Of a stretch of 64,000 nucleotides of DNA, positions 40,771 to 57,079 are shown piece by piece. The position numbers were made by a program, and so were the translations under genes. The stretch lies in IMG/VR virus record IMGVR_UViG_2706796033_000001, positions 1-64,000 of that record; one strand, written 5' to 3'. A model generated the notes under the pieces. That model was not told the origin of the DNA. It searched no databases and was given only the letters and a program-made list of their open reading frames with translations. This stretch comes from a virus. Its lineage: Duplodnaviria > Caudoviricetes. Numbering within the stretch: position 1 is the stretch's first letter; every line of letters starts with the position of its first letter.

Positions 40771-42201
40771 ATGACGACGTTTTTGCAGAACCTAAGCGGA
40801 CAGCTCAATACCACCCGCACGGAGAACGGCGATAAGGCGCACAAGTCGTCGCTTGATCCGGTGGTGGATTACTTCGGCTTGGCGGGCGCTATGCGTGACC
40901 GTGCCGAGGCGAGCGCTGACCTGTTTGAGAAGGCGTTCAACGTTGACCCGCAGGCTGCCGTGCGGACCCTGTTTTATCTGCGTGATGTGCGCGGGGGCCA
41001 GGGGGAGCGCGACGTGTTCCGCGCTGGGCTTAAGCGCCTCTATGCCGTCGACCCGTACACGGCGATGGCCGTTACCGAGCATGTCCCGTTCTATGGGCGC
41101 TGGGATGACTTGTTCATCTTCGGGTCGCAGGTTCCGGCGGGCATCGGGGCGATCATTCGTGAGCAGTGGTCCGCCGACGTTGACGCTTACGAGCGCGGCG
41201 AGAAGGTCTCACTGCTGGCTAAGTGGCTGCCGTCCGATAAGAGCCGGTCGAACTTGGACCTGGCTATCGCGGTCCGCGAAATGCTGGGCCTGACTCAGCG
41301 CGAGTACCGCCAGACGCTTAGCGCGCTGCGGGGTCGTATCGACCTGCTTGAGCACGCGATGACGGAGGGCGTGTACGGCAACGTCGACTACGGCAAGATT
41401 CCGGCGCAGGCGCACCGCAAGCACGTTAAGGCGTTCCGGCGCAACGACGGTGAGCGGTACCAGGCGTTCCTAGACGCGGTGGACCGTGGCGAGGCCAAGG
41501 TGAACACGTCGACCCTGTACCCGTACGAGCTGTACGACATGGTTCGTAACGGTGACGCGGCTGCGGCTAACACGCTGTGGAACAACCTGCCTGACTACAC
41601 GCGCCCCGGCCAGGACGCGATCGTTCTCGCGGACGTTTCAGGCTCGATGTGGGGTCGGCCTATGTCGGTGTCCGTGTCGCTGGCTTTGTACTTCGCAGAG
41701 CGCAACACAGGGCCGTATAAGGGCTACTTCATGACGTTCGCCTCTACGCCTGAGCTGGTGCAGGTGACCGGTAAGACGTTGAAGCAGAAGCTTCACGCTA
41801 TCGAGCACTCGACTGGCTGGTGTGGGTCGACCGACTTGGAGGCCGCGTTTAAGGCGATCTTGCGGGCCGGTAAGCAGTCGGGCACCGTCCCGGCCACGCT
41901 CTACGTCGTGTCGGACATGCAGTTCAATCAGGCGCTTAACCACGCCGATCTGAGCGTGTTTGAGTCAGCCCGGCTGGACTTCAAGCGGGCGGGGCTTGAG
42001 CTGCCGCATGTCGTGTTCTGGAACGTCAACGCGCGCCACGATCAGCTCCCGGCCACGATCCTTGACGGGAACGTGACGCTGGTGTCTGGCTTGGCGGCTA
42101 CGACGTTCGGCATGGCCGTGGAGGGTAAGACCCCTCGTGAGCTGGTAGATGACGTGATCAACAGCGAGCGGTACTCGCGGATCAACGTTTACAGTTCCTA
42201 A
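40771..42201 (+). CDS. DUF2828-family Ro60/TROVE-like RNA-binding protein with C-terminal VWA domain
   Basis: TENG, RDVRGGQGER, YGRWDDL, AKWLPS helical region; MIDAS DVSGSM...T...SDMQF, VFWNV. Confidence 0.85.
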   Translation: MTTFLQNLSGQLNTTRTENGDKAHKSSLDPVVDYFGLAGAMRDRAEASADLFEKAFNVDPQAAVRTLFYLRDVRGGQGERDVFRAGLKRLYAVDPYTAMAVTEHVPFYGRWDDLFIFGSQVPAGIGAIIREQWSADVDAYERGEKVSLLAKWLPSDKSRSNLDLAIAVREMLGLTQREYRQTLSALRGRIDLLEHAMTEGVYGNVDYGKIPAQAHRKHVKAFRRNDGERYQAFLDAVDRGEAKVNTSTLYPYELYDMVRNGDAAAANTLWNNLPDYTRPGQDAIVLADVSGSMWGRPMSVSVSLALYFAERNTGPYKGYFMTFASTPELVQVTGKTLKQKLHAIEHSTGWCGSTDLEAAFKAILRAGKQSGTVPATLYVVSDMQFNQALNHADLSVFESARLDFKRAGLELPHVVFWNVNARHDQLPATILDGNVTLVSGLAATTFGMAVEGKTPRELVDDVINSERYSRINVYSS

Positions 42202-42208
42202 TGTTTCC

Positions 42209-42232
42209 GATACCGGGGACCGCCCCGGTATC
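42209..42232 (+). other. GC-rich hairpin between DUF2828 gene and RNA array
   Basis: GATACCGGGG-ACCG-CCCCGGTATC perfect 10-bp stem. Confidence 0.7.
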
Positions 42233-42240
42233 TTTAAACA

Positions 42241-42296
42241 TGTGGACGCTAACAGCAACTAAAACTGTTTGCGGATAACAATAAAATGCGTCCAGT
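42241..42296 (+). ncRNA. Y-RNA-like unit 1
   Basis: TGGACGC/GCGTCCA closing stem, TAACAGCAA motif, internal hairpin. Confidence 0.7.
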
Positions 42297-42303
42297 TAAA
42301 ACG

Positions 42304-42429
42304 TGTGGACTCCTACAGCAATTACACTGCTTCCACTGTTAATGGCGAGGTCTGGGTTCGAGTCCCAGTAGCGGCCCTGTGTCGCTGTAGCTTAAGGGCA
42401 GAGCGCGTACGCAAAAAACGGAGTCCAGT
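42304..42429 (+). ncRNA. Y-RNA-like unit 2 containing a circularly permuted tRNA-Asn(GTT)
   Basis: TGGACTCC/GGAGTCCA stem, TACAGCAA; anticodon arm, T arm, looped acceptor stem and D arm in permuted order. Confidence 0.8.
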
Positions 42430-42436
42430 AAGCGGC

Positions 42437-42500
42437 TGTGGTCACTAACAGCAATCCCTATGAAATCTGTTGCCAAAACTGATAATCAAATGTGACCAGT
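42437..42500 (+). ncRNA. Y-RNA-like unit 3
   Basis: TGGTCAC/GTGACCA stem, TAACAGCAA motif, internal hairpin. Confidence 0.7.
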
Positions 42501-42516
42501 CCTGCCGCGCCAGATC

Positions 42517-42557
42517 AGCCCCGTATCCAGTCTTAGCCGACTGGCCGGGGCTTTTTT
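42517..42557 (+). terminator. intrinsic terminator closing the DUF2828/RNA array unit
   Basis: AGCCCCG..CCAGTC / GACTGG..CGGGGCT stem plus TTTTTT. Confidence 0.85.
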
Positions 42558-51577: not shown

Positions 51578-51584
51578 GTGAGGG

Positions 51585-51602
51585 TGTCCGACTTTTCGGA
51601 CA
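51585..51602. promoter_or_regulatory. operator-like palindrome upstream of PNK
   Basis: TGTCCGACTTTTCGGACA is the exact reverse complement of 34555-34572. Confidence 0.7.
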
Positions 51603-51664
51603 CTTTCGCATGTTTCCGGAGTACATGTGTTGTACTCGAATGGCGAACGAGAAAGGAGGTCACA

Positions 51665-52591
51665 ATGACGCTGACCTTAACCGCGATGCGGGGCTATCCC
51701 GGTTCGGGTAAGTCCACTAAGGCGCGGGAGATTGCAGACGCTACCGGCGCTGTTGTTGTGTGCCGGGACGATCTGCGGATGATGCTGCACGGCACTTATT
51801 TCTCGGGCAAGAAAGAGCTTGAGGATGAGGTAACGGTTGCGGAGCGTGCGCAGGTCAGCGCGTTCCTTAAGGCTGGTATCTCGGTCGTTGTCGACGCTAC
51901 GCATTTGGAGCCGTCTTACTTGCGTAAGTGGGCGAAGATGGCGAGCCAGTACGGCGCAGAGTTCAAGCGCGTCGATATCGAGACGCCCGCTAGCTACTGC
52001 ATCGTCAATGACTTCAAGCGCGGCGAGGCCGGAGACCGGACTGTCGGCGCGGAAGTGATTAACCGGATGGCTAAGCGTCACCCGATTAAGAACTGGCCGA
52101 ATATCCAGGCTCCTCCGACGTTCGACCCTAAGCCGGTCGAGTGGGTGCCGGGTCTGCCGGAAGCCATCATTGTCGATATCGACGGCACGGTGGCGCACAT
52201 GGCGGGCCGGTCACCCTACGACTACACGCAGGTTCACACCGACACGGTTGACGAGAATGTGCGCTGGCTGGTCAACCACATGTACGAACTGGGCGATCCT
52301 GGCTGCCGGGTGCTGTTCGTGTCGGGCCGCGACGATTCCTGCCGTGAGGCGACTGAGCAGTGGTTGTGGGAGAACGGTATCTCTTACGACGAGCTGCACA
52401 TGCGGCCCACTGGCGCTAAGGACGAGCGCGGCAACAAGCTGCCGGATTACCTGGTGAAGTACGACCTGTTCAACCTGAACATTCGCGGTAAGTACAACGT
52501 CCGCTTTGTGTTGGACGACCGGGACCAGGTTGTGAATCTGTGGCGGTCACTTGGCCTTAAGTGCCTGCAAGTGCAGCCGGGGGACTTCTGA
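51665..52591 (+). CDS. pnk: polynucleotide kinase/phosphatase (T4 PseT-like)
   Basis: GYPGSGKST P-loop plus RDDLR; HAD motifs DIDGT, SGR, DDR. Confidence 0.92.
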   Translation: MTLTLTAMRGYPGSGKSTKAREIADATGAVVVCRDDLRMMLHGTYFSGKKELEDEVTVAERAQVSAFLKAGISVVVDATHLEPSYLRKWAKMASQYGAEFKRVDIETPASYCIVNDFKRGEAGDRTVGAEVINRMAKRHPIKNWPNIQAPPTFDPKPVEWVPGLPEAIIVDIDGTVAHMAGRSPYDYTQVHTDTVDENVRWLVNHMYELGDPGCRVLFVSGRDDSCREATEQWLWENGISYDELHMRPTGAKDERGNKLPDYLVKYDLFNLNIRGKYNVRFVLDDRDQVVNLWRSLGLKCLQVQPGDF

Positions 52592-55792: not shown

Positions 55793-57079
55793 GTGAGCTT
55801 TGATGCTCCGGAGAACGCTAATTACGCGGCGACCATTGTTAAGTTGCCGCAGGGGGTTCTCCTAGACGGTCTGGACAACCTGGTCGGCGTGCCTATGTTC
55901 GGTTACCAGGCGCTCACCCAAAAAGAGGGCTACGAGCTGGGCGCGCTGCGCGTGCTGTTCATGGCTGAGACTCAGCTTGACACGGAGTACGCGCGGGAAA
56001 ACAACCTGTTCCGTGAGGCCACCTTGAACCGGGATGCCAGCGAGACGGGCTACCTAGAGCCGAATGCGCGCGTCAAGGCGCTCCGGCTGCGTAAGCACCA
56101 GTCGGACGCCCTGCTAATGCCGGTGGAGTCGCTGGCCTATACCGGCTACGACGTGTCGACGCTCAAGCCGGGTGACACGTTCGACAAGCTGAACGGTCAC
56201 ACGATCTGCCGGAAGTACGTCCCGAAGGGTAAGAAGCAGGCCACGCAGGGCCAGCCCAAGGTGCGTAAGCAGGTGGACGAGCGGCTGTTCCCGAAGCATC
56301 TGGACACGGAGCATTGGTTCCGGAATATGCACTACTTCCGCGACCCGAAGTCTGCGGTGGTGACGCAGAAGTTGCACGGTACGAGCTGGCGCGGTGGCAA
56401 CGTCCCGGTTAACCGGACTAAGGGTCGGTTTGAGCGGTTCCTGAACCGTCTGGGCATTGCGACTCCGGACACTGAGTACAAGCACGTGTTCGGCTCTCGG
56501 AATGTGGTTAAGGGCCGGTCGGAGAACAACCACTTTTACAAGGCTGACCTGTGGGCGAAGTTCGGCGAGAAGCTTGAGGGCAAGATTCCGGAGAACTTCA
56601 TCATCTACGGCGAGCTGATCGGCTGGGTCAGTGAGGATGAGCCGATCCAGCGGGGCTACACGTACAACCTGCCGCCGGGGCAGTGCGAGCTTTACGTGTA
56701 CCGGGTTGCGACGGTGAACCCTAAGGGTGTTATCGCGGACCTGTCATGGGAAGGTGTTAAAGACTTCTGCCGGTCGCTGGACCTTAAGACGGTCCCTGAG
56801 TTGCAGAACTTTAACAACTTCTTCGTTAACTCTGACGAGGAAGATGTGCGCGTTTCCAACTTGGGCGCTTACTGGCTGGATAAGCGTTATGCCGACATGG
56901 ATAAAGAGTGGCCGGACAAGCCGGTTCCGCTGAGTGACCGTAAGACGGTTGACGAAGGTATCTGTGTCCGTATCGAGGGCCAGATTCCGCACGTGTTCAA
57001 GGCGAAGTCGCCTCGGTTCTTAGAGCACGAGACTAAGCAGTTGGATAAGGGAGAGGTTGACCTTGAAGCGGTGGCCTAA
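55793..57079 (+). CDS. RNA ligase (Rnl2-like)
   Basis: Motif I TQKLHGT, YGELIG, EGICVR, FKAKS. Confidence 0.88.
   Translation: MSFDAPENANYAATIVKLPQGVLLDGLDNLVGVPMFGYQALTQKEGYELGALRVLFMAETQLDTEYARENNLFREATLNRDASETGYLEPNARVKALRLRKHQSDALLMPVESLAYTGYDVSTLKPGDTFDKLNGHTICRKYVPKGKKQATQGQPKVRKQVDERLFPKHLDTEHWFRNMHYFRDPKSAVVTQKLHGTSWRGGNVPVNRTKGRFERFLNRLGIATPDTEYKHVFGSRNVVKGRSENNHFYKADLWAKFGEKLEGKIPENFIIYGELIGWVSEDEPIQRGYTYNLPPGQCELYVYRVATVNPKGVIADLSWEGVKDFCRSLDLKTVPELQNFNNFFVNSDEEDVRVSNLGAYWLDKRYADMDKEWPDKPVPLSDRKTVDEGICVRIEGQIPHVFKAKSPRFLEHETKQLDKGEVDLEAVA

What the first reader, a model, noticed from the sequence alone, without database searches (positions are those of the whole stretch)
42331..42404. 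Complete circularly permuted tRNA-Asn(GTT) as cargo of RNA unit 2
Order seen: anticodon arm CCA-CTGTTAA-TGG (42333-42345); variable region; T arm CTGGG-TTCGAGT-CCCAG (42352-42368); acceptor 3' strand TAGCGGC joined by a 5-nt loop to the acceptor 5' strand GTCGCTG (42369-42387, 7 bp); TA linker; D arm GCTT-AAGGGCA-GAGC (42390-42404). This is a whole tRNA opened between the D and anticodon arms with its acceptor end sealed, so it cannot be aminoacylated unless processed. Established: YrlA RNAs have the permuted T-acceptor-D layout, but the anticodon arm is replaced by the Ro-binding stem. Here an anticodon loop is retained. Inference: either a non-chargeable tRNA decoy, or a permuted tRNA precursor that could be ligated and reopened (the phage encodes PNK and an RNA ligase).
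Basis: partly seen in the sequence, partly recalled or inferred. Interest (0 to 1): 0.87.

Follow-up and report, generated by a model that had tools for sequence, protein, structure and literature searches.

The report
Phage Y RNA mimicking a whole tRNA
Just downstream of a mycobacteriophage Ro60-like gene lies a small RNA gene shaped like a complete but rearranged and end-sealed tRNA, anticodon arm included; it belongs to the known class of tRNA-mimicking Y RNAs and is most likely a protein-tethered tRNA look-alike, not a working tRNA.

Summary
Every arm sits at the stated coordinates. Window 42305-42428 is one RNA unit: a terminal stem, a TACAGCAA motif and a circularly permuted, acceptor-sealed tRNA-like body.

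It is a divergent YrlA-type Y RNA (Chen 2014), encoded about 100 nt after a Ro60-fold gene (Pfam DUF2828/DUF7788; the top five PDB fold matches are all Ro60).

The new point concerns the 3-bp hairpin CCA-CTGTTAA-TGG. It stacks on two pairs (C42406-G42347, G42407-C42346) made with the strand that leaves the D arm. Together they give a 5-bp stem with a 7-nt loop.

- In 88 non-redundant relatives, this exact 5-bp/7-nt geometry can be drawn in 39, against 3.6 in shuffles.
- The loops carry the anticodon-loop signature: T33 in 38 of 39, purine 37 in 38 of 39.
- A canonical mycobacterial YrlA next to a TROVE gene has the same arm. It is probably the stem-loop that Chen 2014 call "V".

The label "tRNA-Asn" does not hold as a function:
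- close relatives read GTT, GGT, GAT or GCT, or have 8-nt loops;
- the sealed acceptor stem ranges from 7 to about 12 bp;
- other relatives carry the loop hairpin on a different unit;
- the phage has its own canonical tRNA-Asn.

No expression or binding data were available.

The parts
40771..42201 (+). Ro60-like protein gene (476 aa), annotated 'Ro-like RNA binding protein' in the near-identical phage Bazzle
   Evidence: ORF. Pfam DUF7788 3.6e-30 and DUF2828 3.1e-28, weak VWA, no TROVE. AlphaFold2 model pLDDT 82.2. The top five PDB fold matches are all Ro60, TM 0.51-0.55, E 4e-6 to 4e-5. GenBank name.
42209..42232 (+). 10-bp hairpin (loop ACCG) right after the stop codon; role unknown (processing site or attenuator?)
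   Evidence: Read. Conserved in place, with sequence changes, in the Faithunavirus relatives. Not tested further.
42242..42295 (+). Y-like unit 1: terminal stem GTGGACGC/GCGTCCAG, motif TAACAGCAA, small inner hairpin TTG-CGGATAA-CAA; no tRNA-like body
   Evidence: Read. Same plan in 19 of 19 cluster L intergenic regions. Not matched by model R1 at E <= 0.01.
42305..42428 (+). Y-like unit 2, the whole RNA that holds the finding
   Evidence: Model R1: 160.8 bits, the only match in the window. Rfam YrlA partial match at 42351-42404, 20.2 bits, E 0.095, below the cut-off of 69.
42306..42313 (+). 5' strand of the terminal (presumed Ro-binding) stem; pairs with 42420-42427
   Evidence: 8 pairs with pair probability 0.81-1.0. 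Helix 1 is 93.2% paired and all 8 pairs have double changes.
42314..42321 (+). Conserved single-stranded motif TACAGCAA next to the 5' strand of the stem; presumed contact for the Ro-like protein (inference)
   Evidence: (N)ACAGCAA or GCAGCAA in all three units of 19 of 19 phages, in an Acidimicrobiales and a Saccharibacteria MAG, and used as anchor for the metagenome set.
42328..42332 (+). Possible helix Px, 5' strand TGCTT; pairs with ACGCA 42409-42413 (4 of 5 pairs)
   Evidence: Compensatory changes at two columns among cluster L (TGCTT/ACGCA, TACAT/ATGTA, TACT/AGTA), but the register is ambiguous. Pair probability 0.0. Not general in the wider family.
42333..42345 (+). Hairpin CCA-CTGTTAA-TGG = lower three pairs (29-41, 30-40, 31-39) and 7-nt loop of the anticodon-arm mimic. 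C32 42336, T33 42337, G34 T35 T36 42338-40, A37 42341, A38 42342
   Evidence: CCA/TGG to TCC/GGA. Helix 2. 5-bp/7-nt enrichment.
42346..42347 (+). C42, G43: 3' strand of the top two anticodon-stem pairs; partners G28 42407 and C27 42406
   Evidence: Invariant in 12 of 12 cluster L closed-type sequences. Covaries in distant relatives (CG, CT/AG, CA/TG, CC/GG). Helix 3 is 91.2% paired. Same letters as in the phage tRNA-Asn.
42348..42351 (+). Variable loop AGGT (44-48, four nt); T48 pairs with A15 (Levitt pair)
   Evidence: 15-48 is A-T or G-C in 11 of 12 cluster L closed-type sequences and complementary in 76 of 88 relatives.
42352..42368 (+). T arm CTGGG-TTCGAGT-CCCAG
   Evidence: Helix 4 is 99.6% paired.
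42369..42387 (+). Sealed acceptor stem, 7 bp, loop CCTGT. By analogy with M. smegmatis YrlA, a possible RNase P site lies between 42380 and 42381 (inference)
   Evidence: Helix 5 is 96.8% paired and all 7 pairs have double changes. Length varies from 7 to about 12 bp in cluster L. Precedent from Chen 2014, passages.
42388..42405 (+). T8-A9, D arm GCTT-AAGGGCA-GAGC (42390-404), G26 (42405)
   Evidence: Helix 6 is 98.8% paired.
42406..42407 (+). C27, G28: 5' strand of the top two anticodon-stem pairs. The chain then leaves (T42408 onward) towards the terminal stem
   Evidence: As for 42346-42347.
42420..42427 (+). 3' strand of the terminal stem of unit 2
42432..42508 (+). Y-like unit 3: outer stem GCGGC/GCCGC, inner stem GTGGTCAC/GTGACCAG, motif TAACAGCAA; no tRNA-like body
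   Evidence: Read. Homologous unit in 19 of 19 phages. In Lumosvirus phages and CELFI this unit carries a 5-bp hairpin with loop CTGCTAA or CTGTTAA.
42517..42557 (+). G+C-rich branched hairpin followed by TTTTTT: likely intrinsic terminator closing the Ro-like gene plus three-RNA block
   Evidence: Read. Equivalent hairpin plus T-run in the relatives. The simple scan did not flag it, because its loop rule does not fit a branched stem.

Best explanation
**What it is.** Window 42305-42428 encodes a Y RNA of the YrlA kind.
- An 8-bp terminal stem and the adjoining single-stranded TACAGCAA motif are the presumed docking site for the phage's Ro60-fold protein, whose gene ends about 100 nt upstream.
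- The rest folds as a circularly permuted tRNA: variable loop, T arm, acceptor stem sealed by a 5-nt loop, U8-A9, D arm.
- Unlike the crystallised Salmonella YrlA, it also has a full anticodon arm. This is a composite 5-bp stem with a 7-nt loop CUGUUAA. Two pairs use the strand leaving the D arm and three pairs are closed as a hairpin.
- The connection to the Ro-binding stem branches off between positions 28 and 29.

**Shown here.**
- The anatomy and its covariation.
- The conserved 5-bp/7-nt geometry with a U33/R37/A38 loop signature across relatives.
- The Ro60 fold of the neighbouring protein.

**Inferred.**
- The RNA is made together with the Ro-like gene and bound by that protein.
- It presents an L-shaped, tRNA-Asn-like look-alike to a host or phage tRNA-recognising protein, such as a modification enzyme, repair enzyme or anticodon nuclease, either as a tether or as a decoy.
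- It does not decode.
- Its 7-bp acceptor stem followed by C-C may be opened by RNase P and given CCA, as reported for the host's own YrlA. Relatives with acceptor stems of about 12 bp show that this is not required for the conserved function.
For: - **Anatomy.** All elements are at the stated coordinates.
- **Rfam YrlA.** It matches T arm, acceptor stem and D arm here (20.2 bits, E 0.095). It matches full length in the homologous unit of sister phages (37.7-39.8 bits, E about 1e-5).
- **Neighbouring protein.** DUF2828 + DUF7788 + weak VWA by Pfam. The predicted fold's top five PDB matches are all Ro60 over the full length.
- **Conservation.** The same three-unit block follows the Ro-like gene in 19 of 19 cluster L phages read.
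- **Hairpin.** Two compensatory pairs within cluster L.
- **Composite arm.** Exactly 5 bp with a 7-nt loop can be drawn in 39 of 88 non-redundant relatives, against 3.6 in shuffles. Other stem/loop combinations stay near background, apart from 4 bp/9 nt (31 against 7.4), which is the same arm minus its loop-closing pair, and a smaller excess at 5 bp/8 nt (13 against 3.8). The split between top pairs and hairpin pairs varies (0+5: 7, 1+4: 5, 2+3: 14, 3+2: 13) while the sum stays 5.
- **Loop signature.** T33 in 38 of 39, purine 37 in 38 of 39, A38 in 35 of 39. On the model-based alignment, 49 of 59 intact hairpins have 7-nt loops, with T33 in 46 of 49.
- **Covariation of all six helices**, and of the Levitt pair in 76 of 88.
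- **Canonical relative.** A mycobacterial YrlA next to a TROVE/vWA_Ro60 gene has CCA-CTACGGA-TGG plus AG/CT.
- **Against decoding.** The loop varies among near relatives, the hairpin sits on other units in other relatives (21 such hairpins in 19 regions against 0.29 in shuffles), and the phage's own genome has a canonical tRNA-Asn(gtt).
- **Precedent in this phage's host.** Chen 2014 (sections 5 and 6 read whole; passages) report that M. smegmatis YrlA is bound by Rsr, cut by RNase P and given CCA in vivo.
Against: - **Thermodynamics.** Nearest-neighbour energies do not favour the fold in this sequence. The model scores -25.8 kcal/mol (-29.9 without Px) against an MFE of -41.0. Pair probabilities are 0.06-0.07 for the hairpin, 0.08-0.12 for the acceptor stem, 0.06 for the D arm and 0.0 for the two top pairs. 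Only 4 of 12 closed-type relatives show the hairpin in their MFE.
- **Weak local support for the top pairs.** The hairpin has only 3 bp. The two top pairs never vary inside cluster L, so their covariation comes from distant relatives on an alignment fitted to the model.
- **8-nt loops.** The Crossroads type and a prophage type (L162, Mycolicibacterium sphagni) have 8-nt loops.
- **YrlA membership is incomplete.** The Rfam score is far below the cut-off. The published 5' motif GNCGAAN0-1G is replaced by ACAGCAA. Pfam sees no TROVE domain.
- **Neighbourhood.** Only 13 of 77 metagenome loci hold a relative of the Ro-like protein in the flank fetched, and 10 of 10 neighbouring ORFs tested were unrelated genes.
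- **Weak ARAGORN test.** The call survives shuffling of the arm in 29.1 of 39.
- **Not shown.** Transcription, ends, protein binding and any partner.
Confidence: 0.7

Rival explanations
1. Processed, chargeable mimic. Host RNase P opens the 7-bp acceptor stem between 42380 and 42381, the 3' end is trimmed to C-C and completed to CCA. The two halves, held together by the terminal stem, then form a tRNA-Asn-like molecule that is aminoacylated or enters an aminoacyl-tRNA-dependent step while bound to the Ro-like protein.
For: - The acceptor stem is exactly 7 bp and is followed by C-C.
- The complete anticodon arm and G26 closely match the phage tRNA-Asn.
Against: - Close relatives with the same hairpin have acceptor stems of about 12 bp closed by tetraloops (Crossroads, Bromden, DyoEdafos, Chaser, L162). 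Opening therefore cannot be the conserved requirement.
- The middle anticodon letter varies freely.
- The acceptor stem is unlike that of either tRNA-Asn compared.
- No charging has been reported for any YrlA in the passages I read.
Confidence: 0.12
2. True permuted tRNA gene. The transcript is circularised or ligated (phage PNK plus RNA ligase) and reopened at the acceptor loop to give a working tRNA-Asn(GUU), as in the permuted tRNA genes of a red alga (recalled, not checked here).
For: - The re-permuted sequence is called tRNA-Asn by ARAGORN.
- PNKP and RNA ligase genes are present.
Against: - The ARAGORN call is not discriminating (29.1 of 39 with shuffled arms).
- The break lies inside the anticodon stem, and both flanks are committed to a conserved 8-bp stem plus motif shared with two units that have no tRNA body.
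- The anticodon is not conserved, and some loops are 8 nt.
- The genome already has a canonical tRNA-Asn(gtt).
- The same architecture occurs next to Ro genes in bacteria, where the RNA is known as a Ro-bound Y RNA (Chen 2014).
Confidence: 0.04
3. The hairpin is only a variable-arm-like or idiosyncratic insertion (the 'V' stem-loop of Chen 2014) that decorates the stem leading to the Ro site. It does not stack as an anticodon arm, and its loop binds something unrelated to tRNA recognition.
For: [quoted passage not shown]
- A three-way junction can stack in other ways. Px could continue the two top pairs, as in the Rfam YrlA consensus, where a 3-nt bulge sits at this place.
- Loops of the type N-T-G-N-T-A-A also cap 5-bp hairpins on units that have no tRNA body.
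Against: - A normal 4-5-nt variable loop, with the covarying position 48, already lies between the arm and the T stem.
- The hairpin lies 5' of the strand that pairs with positions 27-28, which is not where a variable arm sits.
- The sum of top pairs and hairpin pairs stays at 5 while the split varies, and loops are 7 nt with U33/R37. None of this is expected for a variable arm.
Confidence: 0.12
4. An ordinary, unpermuted tRNA gene at 42304-42374, as annotated in some GenBank records of sister phages (tRNA-Asn in Wilder and Gardann, tRNA-Thr in Zakai).
For: - GenBank features.
- The Rfam tRNA model aligns 42309-42376 in native order, with a D-arm-like AGCA...TGCT.
Against: - That alignment scores 15.0 bits against a cut-off of 29, at E 3.1, with four non-pairs in the acceptor and anticodon stems.
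- ARAGORN finds nothing here in the window, Wilder, Zakai or Bazzle.
- The AGCA/TGCT pairing is lost in CELFI, Bromden and DyoEdafos.
- Most records leave the place unannotated.
Confidence: 0.02

Closest known systems
Mycobacterial YrlA (M. smegmatis YrlA of Chen et al. 2014, RNA 20:1715, PMC4201824; an unnamed mycobacterial ortholog read here as L290)
   Same: - Order: terminal stem, hairpin, variable loop, T arm, sealed 7-bp acceptor stem, UA, D arm.
- Encoded beside, and on the strand of, a Ro60-type gene.
- L290 has the same 2+3 composite arm (CCA-CTACGGA-TGG, then AG pairing with CT after position 26).
- The M. smegmatis primer printed in the paper contains CA-CTTCTAA-TGG.
- Same host genus as this phage.
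   Different: - The 5' motif is GNCGAA-type there and ACAGCAA here.
- The partner protein is TROVE + vWA_Ro60 by Pfam there and DUF2828 + DUF7788 here.
- The RNA lies upstream of the gene there and downstream here, in a block of three units.
- The authors label the hairpin a variable arm.
Salmonella Typhimurium YrlA, crystal structure of the tRNA-like domain (Wang et al. 2018, bioRxiv 10.1101/312249; passages read)
   Same: - L-shaped tRNA mimic with T, D and sealed acceptor arms.
- tRNA tertiary pairs, including the Levitt pair.
- The Ro-binding module is attached through the anticodon-stem region.
   Different: - The authors state that it lacks the anticodon loop.
- Its anticodon stem is open and continuous with the Ro module, with a kink at U23-A24.
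- Here a closed 3-bp hairpin with a 7-nt loop sits at the place where the Rfam consensus has a 3-nt bulge.
Rfam family YrlA (RF02553)
   Same: T arm, acceptor stem and D arm align to model positions 30-81.
   Different: - 20.2 bits here and 22.5-39.8 bits in the cluster L and IMG/VR loci that matched (12 of 17 searched), against a gathering score of 69. None qualifies.
- 0 of 101 mycobacterial genomes gave a match over the cut-off either.
Deinococcus radiodurans Yrn1
   Same: A Ro-bound Y RNA. Chen 2014 draw it with a potential anticodon arm of 5 bp (section 6).
   Different: - Its loop is 6 nt, no full D arm is evident, and the order of T and D relative to the ends differs.
- Not compared by sequence here.
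Circularly permuted tRNA genes of the red alga Cyanidioschyzon merolae (recalled from memory; mentioned only in passing in a passage of Wang 2018)
   Same: The 3' half of the tRNA is encoded before the 5' half, and the acceptor ends are joined by a short linker.
   Different: - Those are processed into working tRNAs.
- Here both flanks form a conserved protein-binding stem.
- The anticodon is not conserved.
- The family is linked to Ro-type proteins.

Membership tests
YrlA-type Y RNA (Chen 2014; Rfam RF02553) | Encoded within a few kb of, and on the same strand as, a Ro60 ortholog | tested here: met
   The RNA starts 104 nt after the stop of ORF 40771-42201 on the + strand. The protein has a Ro60 fold (top five PDB hits all Ro60, TM 0.51-0.55). 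Pfam, however, files it under DUF2828/DUF7788, not TROVE.
YrlA-type Y RNA (Chen 2014; Rfam RF02553) | T arm, then a closed acceptor-like stem-loop, then UA, then D arm, with tRNA tertiary-pair nucleotides including a covarying 15-48 pair | tested here: met
   Helices 4-6 are 96.8-99.6% paired with covariation. 15-48 is complementary in 76 of 88.
YrlA-type Y RNA (Chen 2014; Rfam RF02553) | GNCGAAN0-1G motif near the 5' end (proposed Ro contact) | tested here: not met
   The place is occupied by TACAGCAA (42314-21). The motif (N)ACAGCAA or GCAGCAA is in all three units of 19 of 19 phages.
YrlA-type Y RNA (Chen 2014; Rfam RF02553) | Score at or above the Rfam gathering cut-off (69 bits) | tested here: not met
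   20.2 bits, E 0.095, model positions 30-81 only.
YrlA-type Y RNA (Chen 2014; Rfam RF02553) | Bound by the Ro ortholog in cells; carries tRNA modifications | not testable with these tools
   No RNA data could be laid. Needs immunoprecipitation and modification mapping.
Functional tRNA / permuted tRNA gene | Scores as tRNA | tested here: inconclusive
   In native order: Rfam tRNA 15.0 bits against 29, and ARAGORN finds none. Re-permuted: ARAGORN calls Asn(gtt) and of 39 relatives, but 29.1 of 39 shuffled-arm controls also pass.
Functional tRNA / permuted tRNA gene | Anticodon and 7-nt loop conserved among orthologs | tested here: not met
   GTT, GGT, GAT, GCT and 8-nt loops occur among cluster L type sequences.
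Functional tRNA / permuted tRNA gene | Free acceptor end with CCA, and continuity of the anticodon stem strand | tested here: not met
   In the DNA the acceptor end is sealed by CCTGT. The 5' strand of the anticodon stem is split between 42406-07 and 42333-35. Whether processing changes this is not testable here.
Ro60 / TROVE protein family (for the neighbouring gene) | TROVE (HEAT-repeat ring) domain followed by a vWA domain | tested here: inconclusive
   No Pfam TROVE hit and no PDB hit by sequence or by profile. The predicted fold matches Ro60 chains over about 546 aligned columns at TM 0.51-0.55 and about 10% identity.

The most novel reading that the evidence does not exclude
Ro-type proteins of phages and bacteria carry isoacceptor-specific, complete tRNA look-alikes. 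The composite anticodon arm presents a real anticodon loop; 23 of 39 loops are of the U36-A37 kind that reads ANN codons. Phages would use these protein-tethered mimics as decoys or baits for enzymes that recognise or cut anticodon loops, for example host anticodon nucleases, working with the phage's own PNK/ligase repair pair and tRNA set. In members with a 7-bp acceptor stem, such as this one, RNase P and CCA addition could even turn the mimic into a chargeable two-piece tRNA. A further lead: dictyostelid Class I RNAs share the stem plus ACAGCAA module, so they may be eukaryotic cousins of this RNA family.
Probability: 0.2. Interest if true: 0.85.

Novelty: new variant of a known kind. Interest (0 to 1): 0.6.

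Why it matters
**The open question.** YrlA RNAs are known tRNA mimics, but their partner is unknown. The structural paper states that they lack an anticodon loop and predicts a partner that reads the tRNA elbow (Wang 2018, passages).

**What this locus adds.** In this locus and its relatives, a large part of the family has a full anticodon arm of exact tRNA dimensions, built from two strands. The point where the Ro-binding module branches off varies, and the loops look like those of particular tRNAs.

**What becomes testable.**
- The list of candidate partners widens to enzymes that read the anticodon stem-loop.
- Specific predictions follow, for example a t6A-type modification at A42341, sensitivity to anticodon nucleases, and opening by RNase P.

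**A family outside current catalogues.** The RNAs here share the motif ACAGCAA, and their partner proteins are filed as DUF2828/DUF7788 but have a Ro60 fold. The family is widespread in viral sequences and falls below the Rfam YrlA cut-off, so genome annotation misses it or mislabels it as tRNA-Asn or tRNA-Thr.

**Limit.** None of this shows function. It is sequence and covariation evidence only.

Tried and rejected
- **Expression.** The look-up of sequencing runs listed no RNA holder. I laid no reads. This says nothing either way.
- **Motif scan of IMG/VR**. A tighter pattern replaced it.
- **MAFFT alignment A1**. It misaligned the CELFI-type hairpin by one column. I did not use it for counts. 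I used scripted segmentation and a covariance-model alignment.
- **First regex.** It mis-parsed the Bazzle-type hairpin (TCC instead of CCA). This was corrected.
- **Single-sequence MFE folding**. It does not recover the cloverleaf in the window sequence. I report this as evidence against and did not try to tune it.
- **Terminator and promoter scan**. It found no promoter-like site and did not flag the terminal hairpin. The terminator is therefore my reading of the sequence only.
- **Link to the Ro-like protein in metagenomes.**
  - Only 13 of 77 loci had a tblastn hit in the flank held.
  - 10 of 10 large neighbouring ORFs tested from loci without such a hit were unrelated or unassigned: 8 matched unrelated Pfam families and 2 matched none.
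  - I therefore do not claim that the whole metagenome set is Ro-linked.
- **PDB by sequence and by profile.** No relative found.
- **Literature.**
  - Searches for YrlA with anticodon or variable arm and for DUF2828 (5 papers, none on RNA) found no description of an anticodon-arm reading or of a DUF2828-RNA link.
  - This covers only the library searched.
They may already list cluster L phages and draw this hairpin.
- **Paper primer as a pattern.** The M. smegmatis YrlA primer from the paper was not found in 121 sampled genomes of the genus. I then used the Rfam family search. Most of its 13 hits were tandem tRNA genes. Two were YrlA-like: L290 and L291.
- **Class I RNA lead.** Only the Rfam sub-threshold hit and passages of Kjellin 2021. 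One further paper search and one Atlas look-up added nothing. Whether Dictyostelium has a DUF2828 protein was not tested.
Full report
**Where we are.** The 361 bases around the finding are 100% identical to Mycobacterium phage Bazzle. They match 85 phage records, all mycobacteriophages of the cluster L type (Lclasvirinae). The window's own genome is a 76,271-base virus record, so it is a very close relative of Bazzle rather than necessarily the same record. ORF 40771-42201 (+) is annotated "Ro-like RNA binding protein" in Bazzle. The next annotated gene starts at about 42579. The 377 bases between them carry no annotation in most records.

**Observation.**
- hairpin CCA/CTGTTAA/TGG at 42333-45
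- T arm at 42352-68
- a 7-bp acceptor stem sealed by CCTGT at 42369-87
- TA at 42388-89
- D arm at 42390-404

ARAGORN and Rfam at gathering thresholds see nothing here. With permissive thresholds:
- Rfam YrlA aligns T arm, acceptor stem and D arm (20.2 bits, E 0.095; cut-off 69).
- The tRNA model gives only a poor native-order alignment (15.0 bits against 29).

The re-permuted sequence, built inside a script from window slices, is called tRNA-Asn(gtt) in 3 of 3 join variants. That test has little power. Applied to 39 relatives it. After shuffling the anticodon-arm part it still.1 of 39 on average.

**The block as a whole.** The intergenic region holds three units of one plan. Each has a terminal stem (GTGGAC.../...GTCCAG) with the motif (T/C)(A/T)ACAGCAA directly after its 5' strand.
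- Unit 1: 42242-95
- Unit 2: 42305-428
- Unit 3: 42432-508

A 10-bp hairpin precedes the units (42209-32). A G+C-rich hairpin with a T-run follows them (42517-57). The same block follows the Ro-like gene in 19 of 19 cluster L phages that I read. Only unit 2 has the tRNA-like body.

**Is the neighbour really Ro-like?**
- Pfam gives DUF7788 (3.6e-30) and DUF2828 (3.1e-28) with weak VWA hits, and no TROVE.
- Sequence and profile searches of the PDB find nothing.
- An AlphaFold2 model from 31 aligned relatives (pLDDT 82.2, pTM 0.68) has as its top five PDB matches only Ro60 chains over the full length: 1yvr, 2i91, 9nf8, 1yvp, with TM 0.51-0.55 and E 4e-6 to 4e-5. After those come only vWA domains.
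- So "Ro-like" is supported at the level of fold.
- The family is large: 6083 proteins at E <= 1e-5 among the 8000 candidates scored. Its Atlas clusters are mostly viral.

**What the hairpin is.** Two architectures occur in unit 2 among cluster L phages.

*Open type.* Bronvirus, Lumosvirus and Douge have an open 5-bp anticodon stem formed by the strand before the variable loop and the strand after the D arm (ACCGA/TTGGT, ACCGG/TTGGT, ACTGC/GCGGT). This is the layout of the Rfam YrlA consensus. These units score 32-40 bits full length or nearly so.

*Closed type.* Faithunavirus (including the window), CELFI and Bromdenvirus have a closed 3-bp hairpin with a 7-nt loop.
- The stem changes from CCA/TGG to TCC/GGA, which is two compensatory pairs, with no disruption in 12 distinct sequences.
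- Directly after the hairpin come C-G, then AGG(T/C), then the T arm.
- Directly after the D arm come G, C-G.
- Read as tRNA positions this gives: G26, C27-G43, G28-C42 (42406-07 with 42347-46), pairs 29-41, 30-40 and 31-39 from the hairpin, loop 32-38 = CTGTTAA, and a 4-nt variable loop.
- The chain to and from the terminal stem branches off between positions 28 and 29.
- A further short helix (Px, 42328-32 with 42409-13) is possible and shows compensatory changes at two columns. Its register is ambiguous and it is not general.

**Does the composite arm hold beyond cluster L?**

*Named relatives of the protein*:
- a Mycolicibacterium sphagni prophage (CCA-CTGATAAA-TGG);
- an Acidimicrobiales MAG (open type);
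- a Saccharibacteria MAG with four units, two of which have closed hairpins (CCA-CTTTCAA-TGG followed by AG, pairing with CT; TGC-TTTTGGA-GCA followed by TG, pairing with CA).

Together with cluster L this makes 88 non-redundant sequences. I asked in how many a contiguous arm of T base pairs and loop L can be drawn, where the arm combines top pairs made with the post-D strand and a hairpin.
- For T=5 and L=7 the answer is 39 of 88, against 3.6 in shuffles of the upstream segment.
- Other combinations stay near background. The exceptions are 4 bp/9 nt (31 against 7.4), which is the same arm minus its loop-closing pair, and a smaller excess at 5 bp/8 nt (13 against 3.8).
- The split between top pairs and hairpin pairs varies (0+5: 7, 1+4: 5, 2+3: 14, 3+2: 13) while the sum stays 5.
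- Loops have T at position 33 in 38 of 39, a purine at 37 in 38 of 39 and A at 38 in 35 of 39.
- All five stem positions show four or five pair types.

*Covariance model.* A model built from six near-identical Faithunavirus sequences with this structure finds 121 matches in 96 sources, and only unit 2 in the window. On its alignment:
- 95.4% of cells pair, against 35-46% with slid partners;
- the hairpin is 88.7% paired and the top stem 91.2% paired;
- each of their five pairs has 30-55 cells changed on both sides.

This alignment is fitted to the model and so leans towards the structure. Of 59 rows with an intact 3-bp hairpin, 49 have 7-nt loops, with T33 in 46 of 49.

*Why this is not a variable arm.*
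- A normal 4-5-nt variable loop with the covarying Levitt partner already sits next to the T stem (15-48 complementary in 76 of 88).
- The hairpin lies on the 5' side of the strand that pairs with positions 27-28.

**Relation to the known family.**
- Chen et al. 2014 describe YrlA RNAs next to Ro60 genes in 254 bacteria and 22 phages. [quoted passage not shown]
- Wang et al. 2018 state that Salmonella YrlA lacks the anticodon loop (passages).
- I found a canonical mycobacterial YrlA directly upstream of a TROVE + vWA_Ro60 gene. It has the GNCGAA-type motif and the same 2+3 arm: CCA-CTACGGA-TGG, with AG pairing with CT.
- A primer printed in Chen 2014 for M. smegmatis YrlA contains CA-CTTCTAA-TGG followed by a TGGTC-type variable loop.
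- So the hairpin is very probably their V stem-loop. The feature is not unique to this phage.
- What I could not find in print is its reading as an anticodon arm of exact dimensions.
- The cluster L RNAs differ from canonical YrlA in the 5' motif, the Pfam family of the partner protein, the position relative to the gene and the three-unit block. All fall below the Rfam cut-off.

**Is it a tRNA-Asn?**

*In form, yes.*
- With G26, the composite arm differs from the anticodon arm of the phage's own tRNA-Asn(gtt) only at pair 30-40.
- The re-permuted unit is closer to that tRNA (score 29, 54 of 71 identical) than to the other ten phage tRNAs (17 or less).
- It is about as close to a Mycolicibacterium tRNA-Asn (28).

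*In function, unlikely.*
- Relatives about 93% identical over the whole intergenic stretch read CTGGTAA (Zakai, Lewan).
- Others read ATGATAA (CELFI, Bromden, DyoEdafos, Chaser), ATGCTAA (a mycobacterial prophage, L291) or have 8-nt loops (Crossroads, L162).
- All keep T33, G34, T36, A37 and A38 and vary only the middle letter.
- Hairpins with the loop N-T-G-N-T-A-A occur 21 times in the 19 intergenic regions, against 0.29 in shuffles. In Bronvirus, Lumosvirus and Douge they sit on unit 1 or unit 3, on 5-bp stems, separate from the tRNA-like body.
- The sealed acceptor stem is 7 bp here but about 12 bp, closed by tetraloops, in Crossroads, Bromden, DyoEdafos, Chaser and L162.
- The genome has a canonical tRNA-Asn(gtt) outside the window (Bazzle gene 119).

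**How it most likely works.**

*Shown:* anatomy, covariation, and a neighbouring protein with a Ro60 fold.

*From the family's literature:* Y RNAs bind Ro through the terminal stem region and tether it to other proteins. M. smegmatis YrlA is Rsr-bound, cut by RNase P and given CCA in vivo. Salmonella YrlA is modified by TruB and DusA (Chen 2014).

*Inferred:*
- Unit 2 is co-transcribed with the Ro-like gene, bound by that protein, and presents a complete tRNA look-alike to a tRNA-recognising protein as tether or decoy.
- The phage also encodes PNKP and an RNA ligase and 11 tRNAs. In other systems, from memory, such enzymes repair anticodon-loop cuts. A role around tRNA damage is therefore plausible but untested.
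- Because the acceptor stem here is 7 bp and followed by C-C, opening by RNase P and CCA addition is a reasonable prediction for this member. It cannot be the conserved requirement.

**Evidence against, in full.**
- Nearest-neighbour folding prefers another structure in this sequence: -41.0 kcal/mol against -25.8, or -29.9 without Px. It gives the hairpin, acceptor and D pairs probabilities of only 0.06-0.12, and the two top pairs 0.0.
- Only 4 of 12 closed-type relatives show the hairpin in their MFE.
- The two top pairs are invariant within cluster L.
- Some loops are 8 nt.
- The relatives were selected by a pattern and are not independent.
- Only 13 of 77 metagenome loci show a relative of the Ro-like gene in the flank held.
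- There is no evidence on expression or binding.

**Verdict.**
- It is a new variant of a known kind, a YrlA-class tRNA mimic.
- Its interest lies in the composite, exactly tRNA-sized anticodon arm, which proves to be general.
- It also lies in the DUF2828-linked, ACAGCAA-type family, which current catalogues miss.

Confidence is 0.7 that it is a Ro-tethered tRNA mimic that does not decode. Interest is 0.6.

Noticed in passing
window 42308-42354 (and the stem plus ACAGCAA module of all three units, 42242-42508): The Rfam model of dictyostelid Class I RNAs hits unit 2 below threshold (18.9 bits, E 0.66, cut-off 41.5). Its consensus 11-nt motif CCUUACAGCAA is nearly the motif here. Class I RNAs are described as a short stem joining the ends, with this motif next to the 5' strand and CUGU at the 3' end (Kjellin 2021, passages). 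That is the same plan as these units. Possibly they are related RNA-protein systems. Whether Dictyostelium has a DUF2828 protein was not tested.
   Followed up: partly
window 40771-42201: The protein that phage annotators call 'Ro-like' has no Pfam TROVE hit. It is DUF2828 + DUF7788, yet it folds like Ro60. The family is large (6083 hits at E <= 1e-5 among 8000 scored) and mostly viral in the Atlas clusters. No paper in the library links DUF2828 to RNA.
   Followed up: partly
L001 1605-1675 (Wilder), L002 1605-1675 (Zakai); equivalent to window 42304-42374: Some GenBank records annotate an ordinary tRNA-Asn (Wilder, Gardann) or tRNA-Thr (Zakai) over the 5' part of unit 2, while most sister records leave it blank. 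ARAGORN finds no tRNA there. The annotation is probably a false positive caused by the tRNA-like body.
   Followed up: yes
L006, L013, L012, L016, L017, L008 (unit 2 of Crossroads, Bromden, DyoEdafos, Chaser, Douge, Snenia): The tRNA-like body is mosaic among lineages. The long acceptor stem of Crossroads (Faithunavirus flanks) is that of Bromden. Douge (Bromdenvirus-like flanks) has the acceptor stem and open anticodon stem of the Lumosvirus type. This suggests exchange of the module by recombination.
   Followed up: no
L225, L228, L257, L259, L249, L180, L185, L231 (metagenome contigs): In these relatives the strand that closes the hairpin is duplicated after the D arm, so the same 3' strand could form either the closed hairpin or an open stem. 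This may be a structural switch or a recent duplication.
   Followed up: no
L137, L139, L143-L146, L150, L156, L158-L160, L163 (IMG/VR contigs): A different Y-like RNA group with the same GTGGAC...ACAGCAA start. It has a 5-bp hairpin with loop CTGCAAA and a T arm but no D arm, followed by what looks like a short open frame before the closing strand.
   Followed up: no
L167 3929-4410 (Saccharibacteria MAG); L260, L267, L230, L215, L216, L253 (metagenome contigs): Several tRNA-like Y RNAs occur per locus. There are four units after the Ro-like gene in L167, and three to five model matches in single metagenome loci. These are arrays of mimics with different loops.
   Followed up: no
loops of the 39 composite arms and 49 model-aligned loops: Loop letters follow tRNA habits beyond U33/R37. 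T36-A37 occurs in 23 of 39 (27 of 49 in the second set). Where position 37 is G, position 36 is G in 4 of 5 (5 of 6). In real tRNAs this goes with t6A37 and m1G37 respectively (recalled, not tested).
   Followed up: no
window 51578-52591 and 55793-57079; own genome about 65858-65931: PNKP (kinase plus HAD phosphatase; HAD_PNKP 1.5e-48) and an RNA ligase (7.4e-12) are encoded about 9-15 kb downstream. A canonical tRNA-Asn(gtt), whose anticodon arm nearly equals the mimic's, lies outside the window.
   Followed up: partly
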